A stretch of DNA of 32,000 nucleotides from Alkanindiges illinoisensis DSM 15370 (GCF_000619845.1 NZ_JHUX01000003.1:1300064-1332063), one strand, 5' to 3'; numbered from the stretch's first letter, positions 1-20,215 are shown. Notes: generated by a model from the sequence alone, not told the origin. A program made the numbers and translations.

Positions 1-751
<751 letters not shown>

Positions 752-958: not shown

Positions 959-2116
959 ATGTCCCAAAACGATGAAAAGATTGGCAATAAGAATGATGCT
1001 GATCCCACTATTATTATTTCTGATAATCCGGAGCAGGATAAATATGAAATATTAAAAGAGAAATTGCGCTATAAGCAGGCCAAACGTGAAAATAATAAAA
1101 AGGTAGATCACAAACAAGTACGGCTGAACATTCAGGCCAATGCCCTGCCCAGCAAAACTTTCTTTATTATGAATACGCTGGCAGGCATCATTGCAGGCTA
1201 TGGCTTACTCGCCAACTCGCCAGCAGTAGTCATTGGTGCCATGCTGGTGGCAATGATGACCGGGCCAATTTCCGGTATTACCCTAGCTCTGATTGATAAT
1301 CGCTTGATCCTGCTGGGTACATCCCTAAAAACCCTGTTTGGCGGAATTGGCCTGCTGGCAGCGGTAGGTATCTTGCTGGGTATTATTCACTATAACATGC
1401 CCATCAGTGCGGAAATACTGGCGCGTACCAGCCCAAATTTTATGGATTTAATGGTTGCACTGGCTGGCGGCGCTGCCGGGGCATTTGCATCAATTTCAAC
1501 ACGCTTGTCGGTTGCGGTTGTGGGAGTTGCGGTGGCTACTGCACTTGTGCCACCTTTGGTAGCGATGGGTATTTTGCTGGCTCATTATGAATGGAAACTG
1601 GCGCTGGGGGCGTTTATTCTGGTTTTTACCAATATGGTGGCCATCCAGTTTAGCTCATCATTGGTATTATGGATTGCAGGTTTTCGCCGGGTAACTGATG
1701 AAGAAGCTGATAAAAGTGCGCTGGCTTTTATCAAACGCAATTTCATTAGCCTGATCATGCTCGGGTTCTTGGCAATTTATCTCAGCTTAAATTTACTGGG
1801 CACGATTGAAAAGCAACATTATCAGGCATCTACGACCAAGCATCTTAAAGTTTTATTTTCCAAGCAGAACAACGTCATTGAGCAAGTACAATATATTCCC
1901 TATAACAATTTCATGCTCATCCGGGTCATGCTACAAGGCGATATTGCCCCCAGCAAGCAGGAAGTACTTGCAGCCCAAAAAAGCATTTCACCCGGTAAGG
2001 ATGGCCTGCCCGTTAAGCTTCAAGTACGCTTTTCATCGGTAACCATTGTGCAGCCTGACTTGCTGGATAATTTATCACTCACTTCTACTGAGGCTGATTC
2101 ACTGGCACAACAATAG
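959..2116 (+). CDS. DUF389/TIGR00341-like integral membrane protein with a hydrophilic K/N/E-rich N-terminus
   Basis: 385-aa ORF. About 65 hydrophilic residues are followed by several Gly/Ala-rich hydrophobic helices (SPAVVIGAMLVAMMTGPI, VGVAVATALVPPLVAMG), a pattern I associate with DUF389. The family assignment is from memory, not from a search. Confidence 0.75.
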   Translation: MSQNDEKIGNKNDADPTIIISDNPEQDKYEILKEKLRYKQAKRENNKKVDHKQVRLNIQANALPSKTFFIMNTLAGIIAGYGLLANSPAVVIGAMLVAMMTGPISGITLALIDNRLILLGTSLKTLFGGIGLLAAVGILLGIIHYNMPISAEILARTSPNFMDLMVALAGGAAGAFASISTRLSVAVVGVAVATALVPPLVAMGILLAHYEWKLALGAFILVFTNMVAIQFSSSLVLWIAGFRRVTDEEADKSALAFIKRNFISLIMLGFLAIYLSLNLLGTIEKQHYQASTTKHLKVLFSKQNNVIEQVQYIPYNNFMLIRVMLQGDIAPSKQEVLAAQKSISPGKDGLPVKLQVRFSSVTIVQPDLLDNLSLTSTEADSLAQQ

Positions 2117-2160: not shown

Positions 2161-3195
2161 CTAGATTTTTTTATCAATCAACATCGCATCGCCATAGCTA
2201 AAGAAACGGTATTTTTCTTGAATGGCATGTGCATAGGCTTGAAGCATTGGCTCACGGCCAGCCAGCGCTGACACCAGCATCAACAACGTAGATTCTGGTA
2301 AATGAAAGTTAGTCAGCAAGCGATCAATCACCTTAAAATGATAGCCGGGATAAATAAAAATATCCGTTTCGCCAGACCATGCCTTGAGTTCACCATTATT
2401 GGCTTTGGCGGCACTTTCCAGCGCACGGGTTGCAGTAGTACCCACAGCAATAATTTTGCCGCTACTTGCTTTGGTTTTTTCAATCAGCTCAACAGTAGCC
2501 TGTGGTACTTCGCCCCATTCACTATGCATGATGTGCTCAGCAATATTGTCAGTTCGCACAGGCTGAAAGGTTCCTGCACCCACATGCAAAGTCACAAAAG
2601 CCTTGTGAATACCTTTTTGCTGCAGTGCTGCCAGCAACTCATCATCAAAATGCAGACTGGCTGTTGGGGCTGCTACACTGGCGGCTTTATCTGGATTATG
2701 AAATACAGTTTGATAGCGCTCGTCATCGGTTTCATCCGCTGCACGGTTAAAATAAGGCGGAATCGGTAAGGCACCAAACTGCTCTAGCGCTGGCAATACA
2801 GACTGGTTAAAGCGTAACTCATACAGGTTATTTTGCCGCCCTTCAACTTGCGCTTCCAACTGACCATCTGCCAGATACAAAGTTGCTCCAGCTTTGGGCG
2901 AATTACTGGCTTTGACATGCGCCAGTGCTGTATCCGTACCCGTAATGCGTTCTACCAGCACTTCAACTGCACCACCACTGGCTCGCTTGCCATGCAGGCG
3001 CGCTTTGATTACCCGTGTATCATTGAGCACCAGCAAATCACCTGCCTGCAATAACTCGGGCAGCTGAGCAATAGTGCAATCTTTGGTCTGACCCTGTGCG
3101 TTGAGATGTAACAGACGTGATGCACTACGTTTGGCCAAGGGATAACGGGCAATTAGCTCGTCCGGAAGGTCATAGGAAAAATCAGATAATTGCAT
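2161..3195 (-). CDS. queA: S-adenosylmethionine:tRNA ribosyltransferase-isomerase
   Basis: 344 aa, [20 protein letters not shown]...[11 protein letters not shown]...[18 protein letters not shown]..., full-length colinear with QueA. Confidence 0.95.
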
Positions 3196-3285: not shown

Positions 3286-3313
3286 TTGACAATAATTTTG
3301 AGGCCGCTAAGAT
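3286..3313 (+). promoter_or_regulatory. candidate sigma70 promoter for tRNA-Leu
   Basis: TTGACA (3286-3291), 16-nt spacer, TAAGAT (3308-3313), about 20 nt upstream of the tRNA 5' end. Confidence 0.45.
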
Positions 3314-3334: not shown

Positions 3335-3421
3335 CCCGGGGTGGTGAAATTGGTAGACGCGGTGGACTCAAAATCCACTGTCAGAGATGACGTGTCGGTT
3401 CGAGTCCGACCCCCGGGACCA
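3335..3421 (+). tRNA. tRNA-Leu, anticodon CAA, class II (long variable arm), CCA encoded
   Basis: Hand-folded cloverleaf. Acceptor is CCCGGGG / CCCCGGG. U8, A14, G18G19 and A21 are in register. Anticodon stem is GTGGA/TCCAC with loop CTCAAAA. Variable arm is GTCA-GAGA-TGAC. T arm is GTCGG-TTCGAGT-CCGAC. Discriminator A then CCA ends at 3421. It closely resembles E. coli leuX as recalled. The 5' end could be 3334 if the extra G is retained. Confidence 0.9.
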
Positions 3422-3595
3422 TAATTTTAGATAATAAAATCAATAAGTTGCTTCTTCAATTACTTAATCCAAATATCTCATTAGTGTAAATTAACCAGCT
3501 TTTGTAGCTTATTTTCTTTAAACTTATTTTTCTTTCATGACATAGAGTTAATAATAAATCTGTAAAGATGAATTTAATGAACAAATTTTACTCAT

Positions 3596-3621
3596 AAAAA
3601 AAGCCCATCTTAACGATGAGC
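3596..3621 (-). terminator. rho-independent terminator (minus strand)
   Basis: On the minus strand: GCTCATC-GTTAA-GATGGGC (7-bp stem with one G:U pair) followed by T7. It lies 19 nt downstream of the stop of the 3640-3801 ORF. Confidence 0.6.
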
Positions 3622-3639
3622 TTTTAGTTTTATGCTGTA

Positions 3640-3801
3640 TTAATAGCCCATTCTTTTCTTACGATTAATTGTGATTTTGTCACCACTCTGACACACCCGG
3701 TGATTTGGATTAATCTGGTGTGTACGGTGATTCATTGAGCCTGTGTTTCTTGTAGTATTCGGATTAAAGCTGTAACTACCATGATTAGCAAACTGGGACA
3801 T
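3640..3801 (-). CDS. hypothetical small basic N/H/R-rich protein (53 aa), not in ORF track
   Basis: ATG (complement 3799-3801) to TAA (3640-3642). Product is MSQFANHGSYSFNPNTTRNTGSMNHRTHQINPNHRVCQSGDKITINRKKRMGY. A terminator follows directly, but the SD is weak (TGGAAA). No family recognised. Confidence 0.35.
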   Translation of the reverse strand: MSQFANHGSYSFNPNTTRNTGSMNHRTHQINPNHRVCQSGDKITINRKKRMGY

Positions 3802-4140
3802 TTTCCATAGCACTTAAAAACTTTGTTAATGCTAGATTAGCAAGGTGCTATGTTACTGACAAAGCGAGTTGTGTATTGCTTATTTATCCAGCAAAATTTA
3901 TTTACTGAAGCTGTCTTATTAAGTCATTAATTCTATTTGGTTCGCATTTTATCTACTGATATAAAACTTTACCTTTCAGGTTAAAAAAAAATTAAATTGT
4001 ATAAACAATCAAAGTTCAAAACTAAATTTTTATAAAAAACTTTAAGAAAAATATTAAATGATGATTCTTCTACTGATTTAATAAATTAACCCGCTTTATA
4101 GTTTAAATCGTTTTGTTTAAATGCGCTGGATTTTTTCTTC

Positions 4141-4341
4141 CTACCGTGCAATTTCAGGGTCATTAGCTTGGTCTTGCTTTTCCTCGCCTAGCAACATATG
4201 CAAATCTGTTCCGTATTCATCAACAAACTGCTGCGCTGCATCAGCATAGGCATCGGGTTCAATGGTTTTGGTTAGCGTGGTTTTTTCCAGAGCTTGGCGG
4301 ATTTCCTCAACTGTATGACTATCTGCCATATCATTGTTCAT
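4141..4341 (-). CDS. hypothetical small acidic protein (66 aa)
   Basis: ORF-track ORF with an SD-like GAGGA 9-10 nt upstream of the ATG. 16 D/E versus 5 K/R by my count. No family recognised. Confidence 0.5.
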   Translation of the reverse strand: MNNDMADSHTVEEIRQALEKTTLTKTIEPDAYADAAQQFVDEYGTDLHMLLGEEKQDQANDPEIAR

Positions 4342-4541
4342 TATTGGCTATCCTCACTGTGATATCTGGACAAGGGATTAGTAGGATGTATTAGGCCTAA
4401 TTTACAAGGTATTTCTACCTATACTATTTGCCATAATAACTTCCTGCCCCGCCACCCTTAATATCTGGAATATTTTAAGCGAGCAAGGCGGAGTTCTTTT
4501 GGACTAAAACTCGGATTAGGCTGTCACACCCCAGCATTAAA

Positions 4542-4769
4542 TTAGTTGTCTGTATTGCCAATTTCCTTATGTTCCGGTTCGTTATCGGTATGCTGATCCG
4601 GTAACTTCACCTTTGCATCCTGATTTTCCAGATGCGCGTTTTGCAATTGCTGTTGACGCTCTCCTTCAGTTTGGGGTTGATTAGGCTGTGGATGCTCAGG
4701 CAAGTTATTATCAGCGGTATTGCTATCAACAAGATTGTTATCGACGCTGCCGCTATTACTGGTGCTCAT
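4542..4769 (-). CDS. hypothetical low-complexity N/Q/D/E-rich protein (75 aa), probably disordered
   Basis: ORF-track ORF with SD GAGG about 7 nt upstream of the ATG. 21 N+Q, 14 D/E, 4 K/R, and no aromatic or Cys residues by my count. DNNL occurs twice. Confidence 0.5.
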   Translation of the reverse strand: MSTSNSGSVDNNLVDSNTADNNLPEHPQPNQPQTEGERQQQLQNAHLENQDAKVKLPDQHTDNEPEHKEIGNTDN

Positions 4770-5203
4770 TGTGAACCTCTATGATTTATAAAGTTAATTA
4801 ATTGAATCGAATCAACATAACTTAAAAATCAGTCTTTCTGTGTTGCACAAACACTTCAAAGCACACGTTTTTTATAATGCTCGGTCACTTCATGTAAAAG
4901 ACGTAACTTTTTATCAATTTCCAAGTATTTTAATGGACTATTTTTTGCACGCGTCACAAAATGACGTTCGTAAAGTATGTATTATAAATTTATAAATATA
5001 ACTACTTGAATTATAATCTTATTTTTTAATTATAGATTCCCCTTGAACTACCTAAAATTCATTGAAATTGATGAAATAAACACCATTAATTAGGTTCATG
5101 GCGGCAAATATTTATTCTGGACTATGAAGAAATAAAACTGTTTTTTTACCAGAACGGTAGCCGTATTTGAAGTATTTAAGCCTGAGTCTGAGGAGTACCA
5201 GAA

Positions 5204-6133
5204 ATGGCATTAAGAATCGTCACTGCTGCAGAACCAATGCGCGTGGACAACCTGATCGTGTTTATTTATGGCGATCCGGGTATTGGTAAAACCTCACTGG
5301 CCTTTAGTGCCAAAAACCCGATTTTGTTCGACTTTGACCGGGGTGCGCACCGTGCTGGCAAGTTCCGTAAAGATACCGTGCCCGTAAGTAACTGGTCTGA
5401 TGTAGCCGCTATCAATGCAGAAGATCTAGAAGGTTATGATTCCATCATTATTGATACCGCTGGCCGGATGCTGGATGTGATTATTGCGGATTTGGTTAAA
5501 GACCAGAAGAACTGCCGCAAAAATAGCAAGGAGCTGTCTATTCAGGGCTATGGGGCACTAAACAAACGCTTTAGTAGCTGGCTTAACCTGATTCGCTCAT
5601 TTGGCAAAGATGTAATTTTGCTGGCGCATGCGGCTGAGGACAAAAAAGGCGATGAGCTGATTATCCGCCCGGATATGGTTGGTGGTAGCAAGAAAGAAGC
5701 TTATAAGGTAGCCGACATGATGGGTTATATGACCACTGTGCAGGGTGAACAGGGTGCTGAAATTTCTCTGAACTTTTCACCATCCACTTCACATCATGCC
5801 AAGGATTCCGGTGCCATCGGCAATATGATTCTGCCCGGTCTGGATAAAAACCCGGCTGCACTGGCGGATATTATCCAGCAGGCCAAGGATCATATTAATA
5901 GCTTGAGTGAGTTTCAGGCTGCTGCCTTGCAGGAACTGGAAAGCTACCGCAATGAGTGCATGGCTGCAGAACATGCCGATGACTTGAATGACCTGCGCGA
6001 ACAGTTAAAGCCTGAGCATTTGTATCTCAAGGAAATGCGGCAAGCGCTGGATCTGGCCTTTAAGGGTTTAAGCCATAAAGTGATCTTTGTGGAAGGCGAG
6101 TTTGTTGATGATATGCATGACGAGGTGGCCTAA
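5204..6133 (+). CDS. Sak4-like / AAA_24 family RecA-fold ATPase with ~90-aa helical acidic C-terminal extension
   Basis: 309 aa. Walker A is GDPGIGKTS at residues ~23-31 and Walker B-like is SIIIDTAG. The N-terminal ~215 aa have the layout I recall for phage Sak4/PF13479 proteins. Strong SD GAGGAG lies 8 nt upstream. Confidence 0.75.
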   Translation: MALRIVTAAEPMRVDNLIVFIYGDPGIGKTSLAFSAKNPILFDFDRGAHRAGKFRKDTVPVSNWSDVAAINAEDLEGYDSIIIDTAGRMLDVIIADLVKDQKNCRKNSKELSIQGYGALNKRFSSWLNLIRSFGKDVILLAHAAEDKKGDELIIRPDMVGGSKKEAYKVADMMGYMTTVQGEQGAEISLNFSPSTSHHAKDSGAIGNMILPGLDKNPAALADIIQQAKDHINSLSEFQAAALQELESYRNECMAAEHADDLNDLREQLKPEHLYLKEMRQALDLAFKGLSHKVIFVEGEFVDDMHDEVA

Positions 6134-6135
6134 GC

Positions 6136-6807
6136 ATGTCTTCCCGCGCCTTGCACAACACGCCACTACGTTTGTCAGTAACCATGCTGGACACTTATGT
6201 GCATGGCATGGCCAATGAGGACATGAGTAGCGAGCAATTAGCGCATGAATTGTTTGCCCGCAAAAAGCCCAGTCAGGCCATGCGGGTGGGCACGTCATTT
6301 CACCGTTTTCTGGAAAAAGGTCAGCTAGAACCACAACTGCTGGCCAAACCGGACAAATATGGCTTTCACTTTATTTTGCCGGATGACCTCAGCGGCACCA
6401 TTGAGCTGGGCGTTATGCGGGAGCAGATTTATGAATGGCCTGTATTTGACAACGTGGTGCTGGTAGGCAAGATTGATGCCGAAACACCTGCCAAGCTGAT
6501 TGATCACAAGCTGACTGCCCGCTTCGACCATGAGCGCTATATGGACAGCCTGCAGTGGCGTGCTTATCTGGCCATGCGTGGCAAAACCCATTTTACCTAT
6601 CAGGTGTTTGAGCATAGCGGCCTGCCCACCGAGCCGGATGCATTGGGACATTATCCGGTGTTTATCAAGGATTATCACCGTCTGGATCAGTATGCCTATG
6701 CCGGCATGCAGGATGAAATCAGGGATGTTGCCCGTGATCTGTCCGAGTTTGCGCGGGTCTGGATGGCTGAATTTCGAGATTCTGAAATAAGAGGAAAAGT
6801 GGCATGA
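6136..6807 (+). CDS. PD-(D/E)XK (RecB/Cas4-like, no Cys cluster) phage-type exonuclease
   Basis: 223 aa. Motif order is LVGKID (motif II Asp), LIDHKLT (D-x-K), then LQWRAYL (QxxxY), characteristic of RecB-family nucleases. The start is 2 nt after the upstream stop. Confidence 0.7.
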   Translation: MSSRALHNTPLRLSVTMLDTYVHGMANEDMSSEQLAHELFARKKPSQAMRVGTSFHRFLEKGQLEPQLLAKPDKYGFHFILPDDLSGTIELGVMREQIYEWPVFDNVVLVGKIDAETPAKLIDHKLTARFDHERYMDSLQWRAYLAMRGKTHFTYQVFEHSGLPTEPDALGHYPVFIKDYHRLDQYAYAGMQDEIRDVARDLSEFARVWMAEFRDSEIRGKVA

Positions 6808-7421
6808 GCGTAGATATGATGATGGTGTGCAATGGCCGCGCGCTGGTTCCAGCAACCGAGCACGACTATGCCATCATGCGACAAACCTACCGGATTGGTC
6901 AGGTGATCAAAACGGAAACCAAACGTCAGGCAGATCGCAGCCTGCAACACCATCGGCTGTATTTTGGTGGATTGATTGGACTGGTCAAGGACTATTGGGA
7001 ACCCCAAACTGGGCTGGTACATCCGGCTGAAGTGAGGACGGCAGCATCGTTTTGCCATTATTTGCAAAGCAAAGGTATTGCATTATCGCCTGAGCAAAGT
7101 CAGGCGCTCCAGCAGGATTACCTGCAAAGGCTAACGCAAAAGCGTGCCGCCAAGCTGATTAATCCAATGCCGGCCAGCACGGCTGAGATTCATCGCTGGA
7201 TCAAGATTGAATGCGGCTATTATGATGTGGTACGCCTGCCGGATGGCACGATTGAAAAAAAGGCCAAATCCATTAGTTTCGCCAAAATGACCCAGGCCGA
7301 GTTTAATGAGTTTTATAAGGCAGCATTTGGTGTGTGCTGGCGCTTTGTGCTTAGCCGCCACTTTGAATGTGAAAGCGATGCAGAAAATGCAATTAATCGC
7401 ATGCTGGACATGGCAGCCTAG
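6804..7421 (+). CDS. phage protein, tentatively NinB(Orf)/DUF1367-like recombination accessory protein
   Basis: 205 aa with an ATGA start/stop overlap with the nuclease gene and SD GAGGA upstream. DRSLQHHRLYFGGL and SISFAKMTQAEFNEFY resemble the RSLDQNRKLWACL and STSRMRVGEFAELL segments of lambda NinB as I recall them. This is a weak, memory-based assignment. Confidence 0.6.
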   Translation: MSVDMMMVCNGRALVPATEHDYAIMRQTYRIGQVIKTETKRQADRSLQHHRLYFGGLIGLVKDYWEPQTGLVHPAEVRTAASFCHYLQSKGIALSPEQSQALQQDYLQRLTQKRAAKLINPMPASTAEIHRWIKIECGYYDVVRLPDGTIEKKAKSISFAKMTQAEFNEFYKAAFGVCWRFVLSRHFECESDAENAINRMLDMAA

Positions 7422-7442
7422 CTGTCCAGCGTGAGCCTTTTT
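7403..7442 (+). terminator. hairpin overlapping the stop codon of the 6804-7421 ORF; possible weak terminator
   Basis: GCTGGACA (7403-7410) pairs with TGTCCAGC (7423-7430): perfect 8-bp stem, 12-nt loop. The T5 run (7438-7442) is displaced 7 nt from the stem, so it is non-canonical. Confidence 0.3.
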
Positions 7443-7686
7443 CAAGTTTGCCTACTGCCCTGACCGCCGATAATTTGTTCAAATTAATTCAACAGCGTCT
7501 ATTTTATACAATCCAACCCATGGCGACATCTTATGTCGCACACCCGCTGCAATCACTTGGATTCCTATGTTTTAATCCCATCTAAGCTGTAGATAGAGCA
7601 CATCATCAAGGCTGAGATTTCAGGGTGGCGTGCATTTAAACATCACGTTTACAGGCATGTGATTACAGAGGTTAATCCAGATCACT

Positions 7687-7866
7687 ATGAAAATGATGAA
7701 TGTAAATACGCTGGCGTGGCTGGATGAGCTGACCAAACCTGTGCCAGAACATCAGCAGTCCCAGCGATTAAAGCGGGCACCCAATGCGCGCTGGCTCCAG
7801 CGTAAAAATGCCGAGCAGCGGGCCATATCCGATATTGGTTTTATGAGAATAAAGGTGAACAAATGA
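7687..7866 (+). CDS. hypothetical small basic protein (59 aa), below the ORF-track size cut-off
   Basis: ATG 7687 to TGA 7864-7866. Product is MKMMNVNTLAWLDELTKPVPEHQQSQRLKRAPNARWLQRKNAEQRAISDIGFMRIKVNK. The stop overlaps the ERF start in an ATGA junction. Its own SD is poor (AGAGG about 15 nt upstream). Confidence 0.4.
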   Translation: MKMMNVNTLAWLDELTKPVPEHQQSQRLKRAPNARWLQRKNAEQRAISDIGFMRIKVNK

Positions 7867-8540
7867 AAGTTTATCAAGCAATCAATGCAGTGCAGCGCGC
7901 GCTGTCAAAAGAAGGGATTTCCAAGGACAGAATGGCCAGCGGTTTTGGTGCGGGCTATGCATTCCGCGGTATTGATGATGTGTACAATACTTTAAGCCCG
8001 TTATTGTCTGAACATGGCCTGGTGATTATTCCCCGCTGTGTGGAGCGGCATGAATCCCAGCGCCAGAGTGGGCCAAAAACCCTGTACTTTGTGGTGGTCA
8101 AAATGGAATTTGACTTTGTTTGCGCCGAAGATGGCAGCAAACACACCGCCTGTACCTATGGCGAAGCGATGGATTCAGGCGACAAGGCCACCAACAAGGC
8201 CATGTCGATTGCCTATAAATATGCCTGTTTCCAGACCTTTGCCATTCCAACCGAAGGCGATAACGACCCGGATGCCACTATCCATGAGCCAGCACCAGCC
8301 AGAAAGCCTAGCCAGAAGCCGGTCAAGCAGAATATGCAAGGTAGTGATCTGAACAACAATGGTAGCAATGCCAAATCACTGCCCAGCATTCTGGCCGATA
8401 TCCAGAAAGCAGCTGATGTGACTGCGCTTGCTGCTATCCGTGATTATGTGGCGGCACGGCAGTATAGCGAGGTTGATGTTGGCGAAATCAAGAATGCGCT
8501 GAAATCACGCCATGATAACCTGATGCACAAAAAGGTCTGA
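7863..8540 (+). CDS. ERF-family single-strand annealing protein
   Basis: 225 aa. YAFRGIDDVYNTLSPLLSEHGL and GEAMDSGDKATNKAMSIAYKYACFQTFAIPTEGDNDPDA match the conserved blocks of P22 Erf (YKYRSCEDILEGVKPLL..., KGMDAAQVTGATSSYARKYCLNGLFGIDD) as recalled. SD AAGGTG lies 6 nt upstream. Confidence 0.75.
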   Translation: MKVYQAINAVQRALSKEGISKDRMASGFGAGYAFRGIDDVYNTLSPLLSEHGLVIIPRCVERHESQRQSGPKTLYFVVVKMEFDFVCAEDGSKHTACTYGEAMDSGDKATNKAMSIAYKYACFQTFAIPTEGDNDPDATIHEPAPARKPSQKPVKQNMQGSDLNNNGSNAKSLPSILADIQKAADVTALAAIRDYVAARQYSEVDVGEIKNALKSRHDNLMHKKV

Positions 8541-8575
8541 TCCGGTCTTTTTTGTTGAGGGAAGTTCCTGTTTTA

Positions 8576-8609
8576 AGCGGCCTGAAGCCCTGGTTTTTAG
8601 GCCGCTTTG
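8576..8609 (+). terminator. weak terminator-like hairpin after the ERF gene
   Basis: AGCGGCCT (8576-8583) pairs with AGGCCGCT (8599-8606) with a 15-nt loop. Only a short T run follows. Confidence 0.35.
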
Positions 8610-8847
8610 ACAATAGTTTTGGTAGGCATTTTATTAACCAGTTCCAGCTACCGCCAAGCCGAAAAATTTGTAGTGTTGCGTAATTTAATTCTGACTAAAA
8701 TCCTTGGTTTTACAGGGTATTAAAGAATTAATGAGCTAAAATATGAACACTACTACATGATTTTTCAGGAAAAGCACTTGTTTTTTTCTCAAAATGCATC
8801 ACTAATGACATATGACAAAATCATTTGTCACTCAGTAGGAGTGCCCT

Positions 8848-11271
8848 ATGTCCGAGACAACAATTCAAAATCCAACTCTTCCAGTGGAAGGTAGCCTGCC
8901 TTTACTGGCATTACGCGATGTGGTGGTTTATCCCCACATGCAGATTGCTTTATTTGTGGGTCGTCCAAAATCAATCAATGCCGTTGAAGTCGCCCGTGAA
9001 AATGACAATCTGGTATTTGTCGTTGCGCAAAAGGACTCACTGGCCGAAGAGATTGACAATGAAAACCTGTATCACTACGGAACAGTGTGCCGTATTGTTC
9101 AGGTCGTAAATCATGAAAATGATGACAACTGCATCAAGGTGCTCATTGAAGGCCTGTATCGTGCCCGTCTGGATACGATTGTTGAGCTAAATGACTATAT
9201 GCGTGCAGAAACCACAGCTGAGCCTGTGCCTGTGGCATTAAGCCCTGAGCAGCAAAAACAGCAACGTGAAACCCTGCAAGCGTTATTTGGCCAGTATGCT
9301 GAAGCCAAGTTACGCAATGCGCGTGAACTGAGTGCAGCCAGCGATAAAATTGAGGATTTGCTGGAACTGGTTTATTTCATCGCCACCCGTGCGCCATTGG
9401 CGATTGATGTGAAACAGAAGTTTCTGGAAGAAGCCAATATCACTGCGCATGTTAAAGAACTGATGGAATATTTAACCCAGCAGTCTGAAGAACAGCAGAT
9501 TGAGCAGAACCTGCACGAAAACGTGAAACGCCAGATGGAAAAAAATCAGCGTGAATACTTTCTGAATGAAAAAATGAAAGTGATTCAGCGTGAACTATCT
9601 GACATGAATGGCGGTGGTGATGATGACATTTCAGAAATTGAAAAACGTCTGGAAGAAGCCGACCTGCCAGAAGATGTACGCAAAAAGGCAGATGCAGAAT
9701 TCCGCAAGCTGAAATCCATGCAGGCTGCATCCAGTGAAGCCGCAGTTGTGCGCAACTATCTTGACTGGATTTTGAACACGCCGTGGAAAAAAGCCAGCAA
9801 GGTGAGTATCAAACTGGATAAAGCCCAGCAGATTCTGGATTCCGATCACTATGGTCTGGAAGAAGTTAAGGAACGCATTATTGAGTTTCTGGCAGTACAG
9901 TCCCGGGTGAAACAGTTGAAAGGCCCGGTATTGTGTCTGGTTGGCCCTCCAGGTGTGGGTAAAACCAGTCTGGGTGAATCGATTGCCAAGGCAACAGGTC
10001 GTGAGTTTGTACGTATGGCTTTGGGTGGCGTGCGTGACGAAGCCGAGATTCGTGGTCATCGTCGTACCTATATTGGTGCGATGCCCGGCAAGATTGTGCA
10101 GCACTTGTCAAAAGTGGGTGTAAAAAATCCGCTGTTCCTGCTGGATGAAATTGACAAGATGGCACAGGATTACCGTGGTGATCCAGCGTCCGCCCTGCTG
10201 GAAGTGCTTGATCCATCACAAAACCACAAGTTCAATGATCACTATTTAGATATGGATCTGGACTTGTCTGAAGTGATGTTCATCTGTACTGCCAACAGCA
10301 TGGATATTCCTGCACCGTTACTGGACCGTATGGAAGTCATCCGCCTGCCCGGCTATACCGAGGAAGAAAAGGTAAACATTGCAGAGCGCTACCTGATTCC
10401 AAAAGCCATTAAAGCCAATGGCTTGAAGGAAAAAGAGCTGACTGTAGAAGAAGACGCAGTCCGCGACCTGATTCGCCGTTATACCCGTGAAGCTGGTGTT
10501 CGTAACCTTGAGCGTGAAATCTCCAAGATTTGCCGCAAAGTGGTTAAGGAAGCTGTAACCAGTCGTTCAAAAAACATACACATTGATATCAATGTAAATA
10601 ATTTGAACGAGTACTCTGGGGTATATAAGTTTGACTATGGTCAGGCTGAAGATGACGCCCAGATTGGCCGCGTAACTGGCCTGGCATGGACCTCAGTGGG
10701 TGGTGAGTTACTGACCATTGAAGCTGCTGCTGTAAAAGGCAAAGGTATTTATACTGCAACCGGTTCGCTGGGTGATGTGATGCAGGAATCTATCAAGGCA
10801 GCAATGACTGTGGTACGTACCCGTGGTGACCAGTTGGGTATTCCACATGAACGCTTCAGTGATACTGACGTGCATGTGCATATGCCTGAAGGTGCAACAC
10901 CCAAGGATGGCCCTTCTGCAGGTCTGGCATTGACCACAGCTCTGGTGTCTGCCTTTACCGGTATTCCGATTCGTGCTGATGTGGCAATGACAGGTGAAGT
11001 AACCTTGCGTGGCCGTGCACTGCGGATTGGCGGGCTAAAAGAGAAACTGCTGGCAGCTCACCGTGGTGGAATCAAGCTGGTATTGATTCCGGAAGAAAAT
11101 ATTCGTGATTTGGCCGAAGTGCCGGATAACGTGAAAGAAGGTCTTGAAATCAGGGCCGTAAAAACGATTGATGACGTATTGCCAGCAGCTTTGGTACATA
11201 TGCCAGAGCCACTTGCAAAAGCGCCTATTGTTTCAACAACAGTTGAAAGCGATAAAGCTGCACGTCATTAA
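8848..11271 (+). CDS. lon: ATP-dependent Lon protease
   Basis: 807 aa with the N-terminal LON domain (LPLLALRDVVVYPHM), Walker A GPPGVGKTS, and the protease motif PKDGPSAGLALTTALVS with catalytic Ser. SD AGGAG is upstream. Confidence 0.97.
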   Translation: MSETTIQNPTLPVEGSLPLLALRDVVVYPHMQIALFVGRPKSINAVEVARENDNLVFVVAQKDSLAEEIDNENLYHYGTVCRIVQVVNHENDDNCIKVLIEGLYRARLDTIVELNDYMRAETTAEPVPVALSPEQQKQQRETLQALFGQYAEAKLRNARELSAASDKIEDLLELVYFIATRAPLAIDVKQKFLEEANITAHVKELMEYLTQQSEEQQIEQNLHENVKRQMEKNQREYFLNEKMKVIQRELSDMNGGGDDDISEIEKRLEEADLPEDVRKKADAEFRKLKSMQAASSEAAVVRNYLDWILNTPWKKASKVSIKLDKAQQILDSDHYGLEEVKERIIEFLAVQSRVKQLKGPVLCLVGPPGVGKTSLGESIAKATGREFVRMALGGVRDEAEIRGHRRTYIGAMPGKIVQHLSKVGVKNPLFLLDEIDKMAQDYRGDPASALLEVLDPSQNHKFNDHYLDMDLDLSEVMFICTANSMDIPAPLLDRMEVIRLPGYTEEEKVNIAERYLIPKAIKANGLKEKELTVEEDAVRDLIRRYTREAGVRNLEREISKICRKVVKEAVTSRSKNIHIDINVNNLNEYSGVYKFDYGQAEDDAQIGRVTGLAWTSVGGELLTIEAAAVKGKGIYTATGSLGDVMQESIKAAMTVVRTRGDQLGIPHERFSDTDVHVHMPEGATPKDGPSAGLALTTALVSAFTGIPIRADVAMTGEVTLRGRALRIGGLKEKLLAAHRGGIKLVLIPEENIRDLAEVPDNVKEGLEIRAVKTIDDVLPAALVHMPEPLAKAPIVSTTVESDKAARH

Positions 11272-18163: not shown

Positions 18164-19480
18164 TTAACGGATAAAGGCCACAAATAAATGGATGGTCCCA
18201 GCAATAAATCCGGTTACACCACCCAGCACAATCAAAATCCACTCATCTTCCTGAAAGGCAGGCCGCAGCAGGTTCTGGAATTCTTTGGGTGACAAAGCAA
18301 GAATGCGCTCACGGAACATATGGTAGATCTTTTGCGCACGGCTCTGGTTCAACACAGGATCAGAAATAGGCACCATCGTAATCTGGATTGAGCGATCAAT
18401 CAGGTCAGTTTTTAATCGTGCATATTCTTTCATGCCAATACTGACCTGCAAGCTGGTGCGTACAACTGGCGTTTCCATGATTTTATTGATATGCCGTTTA
18501 AGAATGCGTCGGGTTTTTTCCTTGCGTGAGCCATACATCATTTCAGTCATGATACTTTTGAGAGTAATTAGCTCTTCTGTTACCACTGAGGCAAACACAT
18601 CGGACACTTCATGCTGGCGCTTCATAAAAGCACCTTGCCAGTTATAGGTGGCGATATGCGGCAACACCGGCGTAATAAATGGAATTCTGGTGTTGGTACG
18701 TCTAAATAACTTGAGATAGCGAAACGGATGTGGCTCCACCGGATTGAACACCATCCAGATTGCAATCCAGTTGGTCAAAAAGCCCCAGACTGCGGCCCAG
18801 AATGGCACTGTCCAGTGCCACGGCACAAAAAACCAGACCAGCATCTGGAAAAAGCCAAAGAACATACCAATCAGCGCACTGATATGCCAGATAAAATTAA
18901 TTTCCTTCTGACCGACTTTAAGGAACATGCGTACCATTAAACGGCGATCACCTTCCATCTGGCGCACCACCATTTCGCGCATGTCGACCAGATTTTCCAC
19001 ATTGAAGGTCAATTCATTAACCAGATCACGTAGCACAGTAGGAATCTGTTTTTGCGCCTGGCTGTAGATACGACGCTTGATGGAAAAAGGCAGGTTTTCC
19101 CACAATACCGGGTTACGCTCCAGCATCACCTCATCAATCAGGTGCTCAAGGTCATAGCCGACCTGATCACCAATGATCTTGGCCATTTCGTCAGGCTCCA
19201 TGGCCTGAAGAAACTCCTGCAGTGACCCCAGCTTGGACAGAGTGTTGTCGGTAATAATGCCAGAAATACGGCCTGCCTTGCGCGGTACGATTCCCTGCCA
19301 GCCCACAGGCAACGAACCAATATGAAAGCCCCAGAAATTAATGGGGTAAAATACCATTTTTAGCGCCATCCAGACGTGCGCCCAAGTCACAAAGGCCGTT
19401 ACTGGCACAATACTTAAAATTGCCCAAAAATCGGGGCGATTTGCAAAGACCTGCCAATAATGACTAATAAACTCCAGCAT
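18164..19480 (-). CDS. DUF445-like membrane protein
   Basis: 438 aa with N-terminal, central and C-terminal hydrophobic segments. GWQGIVPRKA and LRPAFQEDEWILIVLGGVTGFIAG are motifs I associate with DUF445. Confidence 0.75.
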   Translation of the reverse strand: MLEFISHYWQVFANRPDFWAILSIVPVTAFVTWAHVWMALKMVFYPINFWGFHIGSLPVGWQGIVPRKAGRISGIITDNTLSKLGSLQEFLQAMEPDEMAKIIGDQVGYDLEHLIDEVMLERNPVLWENLPFSIKRRIYSQAQKQIPTVLRDLVNELTFNVENLVDMREMVVRQMEGDRRLMVRMFLKVGQKEINFIWHISALIGMFFGFFQMLVWFFVPWHWTVPFWAAVWGFLTNWIAIWMVFNPVEPHPFRYLKLFRRTNTRIPFITPVLPHIATYNWQGAFMKRQHEVSDVFASVVTEELITLKSIMTEMMYGSRKEKTRRILKRHINKIMETPVVRTSLQVSIGMKEYARLKTDLIDRSIQITMVPISDPVLNQSRAQKIYHMFRERILALSPKEFQNLLRPAFQEDEWILIVLGGVTGFIAGTIHLFVAFIR

Positions 19481-19562: not shown

Positions 19563-20090
19563 TCAATAAATGCCAAAACTAAAACTATAGCCAAACATAA
19601 TCATCGGGGTAGCATCTTCCTTGCTGCCATCACGTCCTTTCTTGCGCTCACCCACGCCAATTCCGATACTGGCCGCACTAACACGTGATCTGTTCATCCA
19701 GACATAGGACAGCTCGCCACCAGCACCGAGGCGATTGTACTTTTTGCTATCCTGAGTTTTGGTTTCAATGTGGCCCACAAAGCCACCAAAGTAATAACCG
19801 TTTTTATCGGTTCCTGTCAGGAAATACGGATAGCGAAAGCCAATCTGACCGGCAGGTTCATTCGGGCCATCAATAAAACCGCCCGCCTTGACATAAATAT
19901 TGCCATAGCCTGTTGGCATTTCGGCATTCAGGTGATACAGCTCATTGGTAATCCCCACACCCGCGTATACTTTTTTTAGCCCTGTGGTGTCTGTTGCAGG
20001 CTTTGGAAACCAGTCCTTGACTGCTGCCTGTGCCGACACACTTGTCATTAACCCCACTGTCAACAGCGCTGTAATCCACTGTTTATTCAT
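19563..20090 (-). CDS. small outer-membrane beta-barrel protein (175 aa)
   Basis: Start moved to MNKQWITALLTVGLMTSVSAQA|AV (clear signal peptide, SD AGGAG upstream). The sequence alternates Gly/aromatic-rich strands and ends in ...FSFGIY. The 33-codon upstream extension in the ORF track is rejected. Confidence 0.7.
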   Translation of the reverse strand: MNKQWITALLTVGLMTSVSAQAAVKDWFPKPATDTTGLKKVYAGVGITNELYHLNAEMPTGYGNIYVKAGGFIDGPNEPAGQIGFRYPYFLTGTDKNGYYFGGFVGHIETKTQDSKKYNRLGAGGELSYVWMNRSRVSAASIGIGVGERKKGRDGSKEDATPMIMFGYSFSFGIY

Positions 20091-20215
20091 TACTAACCAC
20101 TCCTGCTGGTTTTTTGGTCTACAACACCCTCTATGGCGTCGTTTGGTTAAGCCAAGGCAGACTTTATCAGAAAAAATCTGCCTGACCACTATTATTCGCC
20201 ATTAAACACAAGTTT

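What the first reader, a model, noticed from the sequence alone, without database searches (positions are those of the whole stretch)
3422..8847. About 5.4-kb accessory segment between tRNA-Leu(CAA) and lon with no integrase and no att repeat
Everything left of 3421 (tgt, queA, tRNA-Leu) and right of 8848 (lon onward) is core housekeeping. The interval between is different: about 1.8 kb of strikingly AT-rich DNA with only three tiny ORFs, then a phage-type gene cluster. tRNA-Leu(CAA) (leuX in E. coli) is a classic island integration site. However, I found no tyrosine or serine recombinase here, and no copy of the tRNA 3' end (GGTTCGAGTCCGACCCCCGGGACCA or sub-strings of at least 10 nt) when reading 3422-8847. 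The segment is therefore either an old, decayed insertion whose borders have eroded, or an element mobilised in trans.
Basis: partly seen in the sequence, partly recalled or inferred. Interest (0 to 1): 0.6.

Follow-up and report, generated by a model that had tools for sequence, protein, structure and literature searches.

The report
Genus-wide fixed phage recombination gene remnant
The DNA between tRNA-Leu and lon is not a strain-variable island: it is an old prophage leftover, a four-gene phage DNA-recombination kit, found intact at this spot in all five Alkanindiges genomes compared and kept under strong purifying selection.

Summary
Positions 3422-5203 are AT-rich (33.7% GC against 46.3% for the genome, 1.5th percentile) and carry three small ORFs. 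Positions 5204-8540 carry a phage-type cluster. I found no recombinase and no tRNA-derived repeat.

The cluster is a phage early-left recombination module: a Sak4-like ATPase/annealase, a PD-(D/E)xK exonuclease with a lambda-Exo/RecE/Cas4-type fold, a NinB/Orf-like DUF1367 protein and an Erf annealase.

All five Alkanindiges genomes compared (Moraxellaceae) carry it in the same order next to lon.
- dN/dS is 0.03-0.12, close to queA at 0.04-0.09.
- No gene has an internal stop.
- Codon usage matches the host.
- The module tree and the flanking-gene tree have the same topology.

Four other genera whose loci were fetched have a different neighbour upstream of lon. The exonuclease family was found in 5 of 397 family genomes searched.

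A diverged paralogous Sak4-exonuclease-NinB set sits in a real prophage elsewhere in this genome, behind a cI-like repressor. That shows where the module came from.

So this is an ancient, immobilised and selectively retained prophage remnant. It is comparable to Rac recET, but genus-wide and with two annealases. What it does for the host is inferred, not shown. Interest is moderate.

The parts
3335..3421 (+). tRNA-Leu(CAA), the left landmark. It is not part of the element.
   Evidence: ARAGORN and Rfam tRNA at 52.9 bits. No repeat of its 3' end occurs downstream.
3422..4541 (.). Variable AT-rich stretch next to the tRNA, holding two small minus-strand ORFs (57 aa at 3640-3813, 66 aa at 4141-4341). 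This is the only part that differs between species.
   Evidence: GC profile. orf57 is absent from G003, and orf66 is absent from G002 and G003. The rearrangement breakpoint in G001 falls between 3440 and 3641. Where present, the ORFs are conserved as proteins. No Pfam, PHROG, NCBIfam or PADLOC hit.
4542..4769 (-). 75-aa acidic small protein, divergent from the module, conserved in all five genomes and restricted to Alkanindiges-like sequences.
   Evidence: Orthologues are 68-80% identical with a conserved core, and pairwise dN/dS is mostly 0.03-0.19. Only 8 clusters were found among 5.8 billion proteins; the named ones are all Alkanindiges and the rest are unnamed.
4770..5203 (.). Non-coding control region upstream of the module, with sequence blocks conserved in all five genomes.
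   Evidence: Five-genome alignment shows four conserved blocks: 4883-4917, promoter-like (TTCATG, 17 nt, TAtnAa); 4951-4966, an inverted repeat (CGTCA-N5-TGACG); 5074-5087; and the ribosome-binding region at 5180-5203. A second consensus promoter match lies at 4989-5017, but the scan as a whole is not above chance.
5204..6133 (+). Sak4-like RecA-core ATPase / single-strand annealing protein (309 aa).
   Evidence: Pfam AAA_24 at 6.7e-37. PHROG_124 Sak4-like at 3e-54. Walker A (GDPGIGKT) and Walker B (IIIDTAG) can be read in the sequence. Orthologues are 83-94% identical with dN/dS 0.035-0.059. Nearest phage relatives are Acinetobacter temperate phages at 45%.
6136..6807 (+). PD-(D/E)xK exonuclease of the lambda-Exo / RecE / Cas4 fold class (223 aa). 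It has no Pfam family.
   Evidence: AlphaFold2 model with pLDDT 88. Foldseek top hits are LHK-Exo 3sz4, RecE 3h4r, Cas4 SSO0001 4ic1, MGME1 and lambda Exo, with probabilities 0.99-1.0 but TM-scores only 0.40-0.47. E60, D114, D123, K125, Q140 and Y144 are invariant, matching the D...(D/E)xK...QxxxY pattern. UniRef labels the orthologue PD-(D/E)XK endonuclease-like. dN/dS is 0.05-0.12.
6804..7421 (+). NinB/Orf-like recombination mediator (DUF1367, 205 aa). Its start overlaps the exonuclease stop codon.
   Evidence: Pfam DUF1367 at 5.4e-42. PHROG_319 NinB/Orf at 3.8e-41. AlphaFold2 model with pLDDT 94.9. Best structural match is lambda NinB 1pc6 at Z 7.6 with 94 residues aligned; the next hit is Z 5.1 and covers only an inserted helical hairpin. 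dN/dS is 0.03-0.09.
7422..7866 (+). Spacer plus a 59-aa basic ORF (7687-7866) whose stop overlaps the Erf start. The ORF is present only in this genome and in A. hydrocarboniclasticus.
   Evidence: ORF list. tblastn finds it only in L021. In the other three genomes the NinB-Erf spacer is 197-297 bp (coordinates). Positions 7650-8150 are 98-100% identical between the two species while the flanks are 85-90%.
7863..8540 (+). Erf-family single-strand annealing protein (225 aa), the second annealase of the module.
   Evidence: Pfam ERF at 2.8e-20. PHROG_155 Erf-like at 1.4e-37. Orthologues are 84-95% identical with dN/dS 0.026-0.109. The five lon-linked copies sit on short branches apart from the prophage copies.
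8575..8607 (+). Hairpin just after the Erf stop, possibly a terminator. It lies in the variable 8541-8662 junction.
   Evidence: Inverted repeat I20, 12-nt arms with a 9-nt loop. This region is not conserved between species, and G002 and G003 carry about 300 bp more here with a small Cys-rich ORF.
8663..8847 (+). lon promoter/leader, conserved in all five genomes. It marks the right-hand limit of the element.
   Evidence: Five-genome alignment.

Best explanation
The segment is what is left of a temperate phage's early-left operon. It entered the chromosome of an Alkanindiges ancestor, lost its integrase, repressor, replication, lysis and structural genes, and has been inherited vertically ever since. 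What survives is a recombination module encoding four activities. A PD-(D/E)xK exonuclease would resect DNA ends to single strands. Two annealing proteins, the Sak4-like RecA-core ATPase and Erf, would pair complementary single strands. A NinB/Orf-like mediator would load them on SSB-coated DNA. The module has its own conserved upstream control region. It is maintained by selection, so it most likely works as an accessory single-strand-annealing recombination pathway, RecA-independent or RecA-assisting. That pathway could serve the host (repair, recombination of incoming DNA) or its dealings with phages. Shown: the identity of the genes, genus-wide synteny, intact reading frames, strong purifying selection, host-like codon usage, congruent phylogeny and a prophage homologue in the same genome. 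Inferred: the biochemical activities, that the module is expressed, and which cellular process selection acts on.
For: Gene identities come from Pfam and PHROG hits, the exonuclease fold and motifs and the NinB fold. The order orf75 / Sak4 / exonuclease / NinB / Erf / lon is the same in G001, G002, G003 and A. hydrocarboniclasticus H1. dN/dS is 0.026-0.12 on all four genes, against 0.043-0.086 for queA and 0.02-0.037 for lon. This holds for the unsaturated closest pair too (dS 0.24-0.72), and there are no internal stops. Cluster GC is 49.2% against 46.3% for the genome, and codon-usage scores fall in the 67th-92nd percentile of long host ORFs. Module and flanking-gene concatenates give the same topology, ((G000,Ahyd),G001),(G002,G003). 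In four other Moraxellaceae genera lon has other upstream neighbours, and queA/tRNA-Leu lie elsewhere in the three of them where that locus was also fetched. Six shorter lon loci show no module either. The exonuclease family was found in 5 of 397 family genomes: all 4 Alkanindiges and 1 other. For origin: the same genome holds a prophage with cI-like repressor, Sak4, exonuclease, HNH, NinB and RusA in that order, at 60-76% protein identity. Phages S1249 and Ab105-1phi carry Sak4 (S1249 also the exonuclease) in an operon that ends at int. Non-coding blocks upstream of Sak4 are conserved in all five genomes.
Against: There is no expression data: no RNA run was listed. No biochemical test exists for any of these proteins. 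Only five genomes were aligned, two of them MAGs; a sixth species, A. illinoisensis, is known only from protein records. dS is saturated for the deeper pairs, so those dN/dS values are rough. The host keeps RecC, RecO and RecF, so there is no obvious gap for the module to fill. Purifying selection alone does not say whether the benefit goes to the host or is tied to phage interactions. Foldseek TM-scores for the exonuclease are modest (0.40-0.47), and the NinB match (Z 7.6) is below the level at which fold matches are safe on their own.
Confidence: 0.75

Rival explanations
1. One reading: a decayed tRNA-Leu(CAA)-targeted genomic island, that is, accessory DNA on its way to being lost, whose integrase and att repeats have eroded.
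For: It lies next to a tRNA gene in four of five genomes. The adjoining 1.8 kb is AT-rich. The side flanking the tRNA is a synteny breakpoint in three other genera and the site of a rearrangement in G001. The tRNA-proximal 1.1 kb does vary between species.
Against: The gene cluster is present, collinear and intact in every genome compared, with dN/dS 0.03-0.12. Its composition is host-like. There is no att fragment even at chance-level stringency. The operon's polarity puts the lost int/att end on the lon side. In G001 the module stays with lon, not with the tRNA.
Confidence: 0.08
2. An integrase-less satellite or element mobilised in trans by a helper phage or a resident integrase.
For: It has no recombinase of its own. 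Related prophages with integrases live in the same genome. A 500-bp tract (7650-8150) is nearly identical to A. hydrocarboniclasticus, which shows recent DNA exchange.
Against: It occupies a single fixed site in all genomes, and its divergence tracks that of the flanking core genes. There are no terminal repeats. It has no replication, packaging-redirection or repressor genes. No near-identical second copy exists anywhere in the genome. The 500-bp tract is an ordinary homologous-recombination patch inside the locus, not a moved element.
Confidence: 0.03
3. The module is retained for a role in phage-host conflict rather than host DNA repair. Examples: helping or interfering with resident or incoming temperate phages, or acting as a recombination partner from which phages pick up genes.
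For: The genome carries prophages with homologous Sak4/exonuclease/NinB and Erf genes. The host's own RecBCD and RecFOR genes are present, so repair is already covered. Phage annealases are known to drive exchange between phages and defective prophages (De Paepe et al. 2014, as cited in PMC4619438; my own knowledge of its content).
Against: None of the eight proteins matches a known defence system in PADLOC. At 60-76% protein identity to the resident prophage copies, DNA homology for exchange is limited. No direct evidence exists either way.
Confidence: 0.14

Closest known systems
Rac defective prophage recE-recT of Escherichia coli K-12
   Same: Both are an exonuclease plus annealase recombination pair left in the chromosome by a defective lambdoid prophage. 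[quoted passage not shown] The 223-aa protein here matches the RecE nuclease fold.
   Different: According to that review, Rac is confined to E. coli and is absent from close relatives. Here the module is fixed across a whole genus, with synonymous divergence above 1. The protein families differ: Sak4 and Erf instead of RecT, and a short Cas4-like nuclease instead of RecE. This remnant keeps no other prophage genes.
Rec modules of lambdoid phages (lambda Red, P22 Erf/Abc, HK620 Sak4/SSB), as catalogued in Genome Res 2025, PMC12315714
   Same: Both are contiguous clusters in the early-left operon that combine a nuclease and strand-annealing proteins. The same families (Erf, Sak4) are involved, and the orientation towards int is the same in the related phages.
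   Different: Among 246 enterobacterial lambdoid phages with Rec modules, only three have two genes for one function, and none of those three cases is a pair of annealases (PMC12315714). This module has two annealases, Sak4 and Erf. In 50,697 phage records the organism names of the 36 Sak4 hits and the 300 Erf hits do not overlap, apart from generic 'Bacteriophage sp.' records with different accessions; one of the 300 Erf records was not shown, so at most one record could carry both. There is no SSB or anti-RecBCD gene, and NinB sits inside the module rather than in a nin region.
Sak4 plus exonuclease pair of Aggregatibacter phages S1249 / Aaphi23, and of the resident Alkanindiges prophage at G000:C3:~282-285 kb
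   Same: Same two families, adjacent and in the same order. These are the only sequenced phages with a relative of the 223-aa exonuclease.
   Different: Those copies lie in complete or near-complete prophages with a repressor and an integrase. Identity is only 32-62% for the exonuclease and 44-76% for Sak4. They have no Erf next to them.
Vertically inherited, domesticated defective prophages (Bobay, Touchon and Rocha, PNAS 2014; not held in the library, cited from the reference list of PMC4619438 and from my own knowledge)
   Same: An orthologous prophage remnant at one site in several species, under purifying selection.
   Different: As I recall, that survey covered E. coli and Salmonella. 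I could not check which functions it found retained, so whether a pure recombination module is typical of such remnants is untested here.

Membership tests
tRNA-targeted genomic island / integrative element | Tyrosine or serine recombinase at one end | tested here: not met
   No PF00589 match in the window; the nearest are more than 140 kb away. No recombinase domain in any ORF of 3422-8847. No recombinase pseudogene signal in the non-coding parts. Serine recombinase families were not searched genome-wide.
tRNA-targeted genomic island / integrative element | Direct repeat of the tRNA 3' end at the far border | tested here: not met
   Zero matches with up to 3 mismatches in 25 nt. Zero 10-, 12- or 14-mers with 0, 1 or 2 mismatches, where shuffles give 1-3.
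tRNA-targeted genomic island / integrative element | Variable presence among close relatives (an empty site exists) | tested here: not met
   The cluster is present and collinear in all five Alkanindiges genomes. No empty site was seen.
tRNA-targeted genomic island / integrative element | Composition and codon usage unlike the host | tested here: not met
   The genes are 49.2% GC against 46.3% for the genome, with codon scores in the 67th-92nd percentile. Only the mostly non-coding 3422-5203 stretch is deviant, at the 1.5th percentile.
Defective (grounded) prophage remnant | Genes homologous to phage genes, arranged as in a phage operon | tested here: met
   PHROG hits. Sak4, exonuclease and NinB occur in the same order in a resident prophage behind a cI-like repressor, and Sak4 plus exonuclease in phage S1249.
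Defective (grounded) prophage remnant | Lacks genes needed for an autonomous phage life cycle | tested here: met
   No integrase, repressor, replication, lysis or structural genes between 3422 and 8847. The flanks are ordinary chromosomal genes.
Domesticated / exapted prophage genes | Orthologous at one site in several species and under purifying selection | tested here: met
   Synteny. dN/dS of 0.026-0.12. Congruent trees.
Domesticated / exapted prophage genes | Demonstrated benefit or function for the host | not testable with these tools
   No RNA run was listed. This needs genetics.
Exonuclease + annealase recombination system (Red / RecET type) | 5'-3' exonuclease of the PD-(D/E)xK class next to a single-strand annealing protein | tested here: met
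   Fold and motifs of the 223-aa protein. Sak4 and Erf family hits. Activity and polarity of the nuclease are inferred, not tested.
Phage satellite (PICI-like) | Own integrase, repressor, replication initiator and packaging-redirection genes | tested here: not met
   None of these are among the ORFs.
Known anti-phage defence systems | Match to a PADLOC defence-protein model | tested here: not met
   No hit for any of the eight proteins at E up to 0.01.

The most novel reading that the evidence does not exclude
Alkanindiges has turned a phage Rec module into a core, genus-defining recombination pathway. The module's make-up was not seen in the phage collection searched: two different annealases (a RecA-core Sak4 and an Erf) work with one Cas4-like exonuclease and a NinB-type mediator, under a conserved host-side control region. 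For example, the two annealases might serve different substrates, such as incoming transforming DNA and broken replication forks.
Probability: 0.25. Interest if true: 0.55.

Novelty: new member of a known kind. Interest (0 to 1): 0.35.

Why it matters
The result turns a suspected mobile island into a dated, vertically inherited prophage remnant. It is a clean example of phage recombination genes being kept by selection across a whole genus, not just one species as with Rac. It also assigns a function to a protein family that has no Pfam model: a short PD-(D/E)xK exonuclease that travels with Sak4. And it points to a compact four-gene set (exonuclease, two annealases, mediator) that could be tried as a recombineering tool in Moraxellaceae. 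Beyond that it is an ordinary kind of object.

Tried and rejected
1. A '49-kb island at tRNA-Leu' in G001. The extra DNA between tRNA-Leu and the module is orthologous to G000:C3:145.9-197.3 kb, which is core DNA at 74-85% nucleotide identity. It is therefore a rearrangement or a MAG mis-join, not an island. No integrase lies on that contig.
2. The module compensating for lost host recombination genes. RecC, RecO and RecF are present in all four Alkanindiges genomes searched and in an outgroup.
3. An integrase, repressor or other prophage pseudogene in the AT-rich DNA. Only noise-level matches were found.
4. The 15-nt repeat TTGACAATA(A/G)TTTTG at 3286 and 8607 as a border repeat. It lies upstream of the tRNA, is at chance level for a 6-kb region, and is not conserved in relatives.
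5. Non-coding RNA families. Only the tRNA was found.
6. Defence systems. No PADLOC hit.
7. The small ORFs. No Pfam, PHROG or NCBIfam hit. The protein atlas gave only sub-threshold or no hits.
8. Expression. No RNA holder was listed, and read laying was not used.
9. The promoter/terminator scan was not above its shuffled expectation.
10. PDB sequence searches with the single proteins and with profiles gave nothing. Only fold comparison did.
12. PMC4143005 (Bobay et al. 2014) is not held in the library.

Full report
WHAT IS THERE. The window is G000:C3:1300064-1332063 of a 3.3-Mb genome. Record titles of the closest loci place it in Alkanindiges, Moraxellaceae. The layout is as follows:
- tgt (2-748, minus strand; runs off the window's start, so its 3' end is not seen)
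- a DUF389 membrane-protein gene (959-2116, plus)
- queA (2161-3195, minus)
- tRNA-Leu(CAA) (3335-3421, plus)
- 1.78 kb of AT-rich DNA with three small minus-strand ORFs of 57, 66 and 75 aa
- a plus-strand cluster from 5204 to 8540
- lon (8848-11271), followed by rlmH, a LigB-family gene, a META/DUF4377 gene, gdh, an rnfB-like gene, nth, adk and further ordinary genes

OBSERVATION CHECK. Positions 3422-5203 have 33.7% GC against a genome mean of 46.3%, the 1.5th percentile of equal-sized genome windows. The window holds no tyrosine recombinase; the twelve PF00589 matches in the genome all lie more than 140 kb away. Translated searches with the ORFs of the genome's integrase neighbourhoods and prophage regions found nothing above noise in the non-coding parts. 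The tRNA 3' end has no second copy with up to 3 mismatches in 25 nt. Not even 10- to 14-mers from the tRNA tail occur in 3441-9200, although shuffled sequence gives one to three by chance. Two corrections apply. A DUF389 gene separates tgt from queA. The compositional anomaly is confined to the mostly non-coding stretch: the gene cluster is 49.2% GC (81st percentile) and its codon usage scores in the 67th-92nd percentile of long host ORFs.

WHAT THE GENES ARE.
- Gene 1 (5204-6133) is a Sak4-like RecA-core ATPase. It hits Pfam AAA_24 at 7e-37 and PHROG_124 at 3e-54, and has readable Walker A and B motifs.
- Gene 2 (6136-6807) has no Pfam, NCBIfam or PDB sequence match, and only 29 relatives were found among 5.8 billion proteins. 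An AlphaFold2 model built on those relatives (pLDDT 88) matches LHK-Exo, RecE, Cas4 SSO0001, MGME1 and lambda exonuclease at probabilities of 0.99-1.0. The invariant residues E60, D114, D123-x-K125 and Q140-x3-Y144 are the signature of that nuclease class, as I know it from the RecB/Cas4/lambda-Exo literature. UniRef labels the orthologue PD-(D/E)XK endonuclease-like.
- Gene 3 (6804-7421) is a DUF1367 protein (5e-42) that PHROG files under NinB/Orf. Its model (pLDDT 94.9) has lambda NinB 1pc6 as best structural match, at Z 7.6 with 94 residues aligned. That is 2.5 Z units above unrelated hits covering only an inserted helical hairpin. I take this as moderate support.
- A 59-aa ORF (7687-7866) overlaps the start of gene 4.
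- Gene 4 (7863-8540) is an Erf-family annealase (Pfam 3e-20, PHROG_155 1e-37).

Together these are the parts of a phage single-strand-annealing recombination system: a nuclease, two annealases and a mediator.

COMPARATIVE GENOMICS: THE DECISIVE EVIDENCE. The three other genomes of the genus held in the genome set (G001-G003) carry the same genes in the same order directly upstream of lon. A fourth relative, A. hydrocarboniclasticus H1, is collinear from DUF389 through rlmH. Protein identities to the window across these four genomes are:

| Protein | Identity |
|---|---|
| Sak4-like | 83-94% |
| Exonuclease | 70-89% |
| NinB-like | 75-95% |
| Erf | 84-95% |
| queA (flank) | 83-91% |
| lon (flank) | 93-98% |

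No copy has an internal stop. Pairwise Nei-Gojobori dN/dS values are:

| Gene | dN/dS |
|---|---|
| Sak4-like | 0.035-0.059 |
| Exonuclease | 0.047-0.12 |
| NinB-like | 0.033-0.088 |
| Erf | 0.026-0.109 |
| queA (flank) | 0.043-0.086 |
| lon (flank) | 0.020-0.037 |

For the closest pair dS is 0.24-0.72, which is not saturated, and it lies in the same range as the flanking genes at 0.46-0.95. Concatenated module proteins and concatenated flanking proteins give the same unrooted topology, ((G000,Ahyd),G001),(G002,G003). So the module has been in place since before these species split, has diverged along with the chromosome, and is kept by purifying selection.

OUTSIDE THE GENUS. In four other Moraxellaceae genera lon has other upstream neighbours; in two of them this is a homologue of a gene that lies at C3:~25.5 kb in this genome. 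In the three of these genera where the queA locus was also fetched, queA lies elsewhere, and tgt was seen beside it in two. Shorter lon loci from six more genera show no module genes: four have the same ~25.5-kb-gene homologue upstream, G018 (the closest outgroup by lon identity) has rnfB/nth, and one showed no recognisable neighbour. The exonuclease family was found in 5 of 397 family genomes searched: the four Alkanindiges, and one other genome at 42% identity where it again follows a Sak4 gene.

ORIGIN. The same genome holds a diverged paralogous set at C3:~282-285 kb (Sak4 76%, exonuclease 60%, NinB 74% protein identity). It sits inside a real prophage early-left operon: cI-like repressor, two small genes, Sak4, exonuclease, HNH, NinB, RusA, then 7-deazaguanine-type genes. 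A separate Erf at 73% identity lies 2 kb from an integrase at C3:~221-224 kb. In Acinetobacter phage Ab105-1phi and Aggregatibacter phage S1249 the Sak4 gene lies in an operon that runs from the repressor side towards int; S1249 also has the exonuclease. By analogy, the lost int/att end of the ancestral prophage lay on the lon side, and the lost repressor, replication and structural part lay on the tRNA side. The adjacency to tRNA-Leu is therefore probably not the trace of a tRNA-targeted integration.

G001 supports this. There, tRNA-Leu/queA are separated from the module by 48.9 kb. That DNA is orthologous to core DNA found 1.1 Mb away in this genome, so it is a rearrangement or MAG mis-join, with its breakpoint between window positions 3440 and 3641. 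The module stays with lon.

WHAT VARIES.
- The tRNA-proximal 1.1 kb varies. orf57 is missing from G003, and orf66 from G002 and G003.
- The NinB-Erf spacer varies: 441 bp with the 59-aa ORF here and in A. hydrocarboniclasticus, and 197-297 bp without it elsewhere.
- The Erf-lon junction at 8541-8662 varies. G002 and G003 have about 300 bp more there, with a small Cys-rich ORF.

WHAT IS CONSTANT.
- The 75-aa acidic ORF is present in all five genomes. Its family was seen only in Alkanindiges-like sequences.
- Several non-coding blocks upstream of Sak4 are conserved.
- The 185-bp lon leader is conserved.

TWO ANNEALASES. Having both Sak4 and Erf in one module is unusual. Among 246 enterobacterial lambdoid phages with Rec modules, only three have two genes for one function, and none of those cases is a pair of annealases (PMC12315714, read). 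In 50,697 phage records the 36 records with a relative of this Sak4 and the 300 with a relative of this Erf come from different host groups. At most one unlisted record could overlap. In the prophages of this genus the two are also separate. The module may therefore be a fusion of two remnants or derive from a rare mosaic phage. Either way the combination predates the radiation of the genus.

MECHANISM: WHAT IS INFERRED. By analogy with Red and RecET (review PMC8987985; PMC2896510; PMC5928155), the nuclease would resect double-strand ends. Sak4 and/or Erf would anneal the exposed strands to complementary single-stranded DNA. The NinB-like protein would help load them on SSB-coated DNA. No SSB or anti-RecBCD gene is present. 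The host keeps RecC, RecO and RecF, so the module adds a pathway rather than replacing one. Whether selection acts through repair, uptake of foreign DNA or phage interactions cannot be decided here.

VERDICT. This is a real feature that was correctly seen but partly misread. It is an ancient, immobilised and selectively maintained prophage Rec-module remnant that is part of the Alkanindiges core genome. It is not a strain-variable island, nor an element awaiting mobilisation. The kind is known (Rac recET, domesticated defective prophages). The genus-wide fixation, the double annealase and the unnamed exonuclease family give it moderate interest. The scan's first readers had already noted the stand-alone two-recombinase toolkit on this same stretch.

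Noticed in passing
window 7650-8150: This 500-bp tract (the 59-aa ORF plus the 5' half of Erf) is 98-100% identical to A. hydrocarboniclasticus, while the DNA on either side is 85-90% identical. dS is 0 for the ORF and 0.24 for Erf. This looks like a recent homologous-recombination patch between two species.
   Followed up: partly
window 4883-4917, 4951-4966, 5074-5087, 5180-5203: Non-coding blocks upstream of the Sak4 gene are conserved in all five genomes. They include a promoter-like TTCATG-17-TAtnAa and a CGTCA-N5-TGACG inverted repeat. They are candidate promoter and operator sites, with no regulator gene nearby.
   Followed up: partly
window 8663-8847: The lon leader is conserved in all five genomes. 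It includes the TGACAAA-N4-TTTGTCA palindrome just before the ribosome-binding site and a CTTG...CATCACTA stretch that may be a heat-shock-type promoter.
   Followed up: partly
L014:~3900-4300 and L015:~3500-3950 (between Erf and lon in G003 and G002): These two species carry about 300 bp more than the window. The extra DNA holds a small ORF with two Cys-x2-Cys pairs followed by a hydrophobic tail, possibly a zinc-ribbon membrane peptide. It is absent from the window.
   Followed up: no
window 3640-3813, 4141-4341, 4542-4769 (minus strand): Three small hydrophilic ORFs (57, 66 and 75 aa) are conserved as proteins among Alkanindiges species but have no family assignment. The 75-aa ORF has only 8 clusters of relatives in 5.8 billion proteins.
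   Followed up: partly
L016:8250 to L018:18112 (G001:C17:49249-98112): In MAG G001, 48.9 kb of DNA orthologous to G000:C3:145.9-197.3 kb lies between tRNA-Leu and the module. This is either a large rearrangement with a breakpoint 19 bp past the tRNA, or a MAG mis-join.
   Followed up: partly
window 959-2116: A plus-strand DUF389 membrane-protein gene separates tgt from queA. In two other Moraxellaceae genera examined tgt and queA are adjacent.
   Followed up: partly
window 18164-19480 and 19563-20189 (minus strand): Two adjacent ORFs of 438 and 208 aa have no Pfam hit at E up to 1e-5.
   Followed up: no
L019:5799-9976 (G000:C3:~275.8-280.0 kb): The resident prophage that holds the paralogous Sak4/exonuclease/NinB set also carries GTP cyclohydrolase and glutamine amidotransferase-type genes. 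That is typical of phage 7-deazaguanine DNA-modification clusters.
   Followed up: no
L069:7050-8051 (Acinetobacter phage Ab105-1phi): The gene after Sak4 shares a 38-aa C-terminal stretch with residues 162-199 of the window's Erf (39% identity, E 3e-4). This may be a shared partner-binding tail on otherwise unrelated proteins.
   Followed up: no
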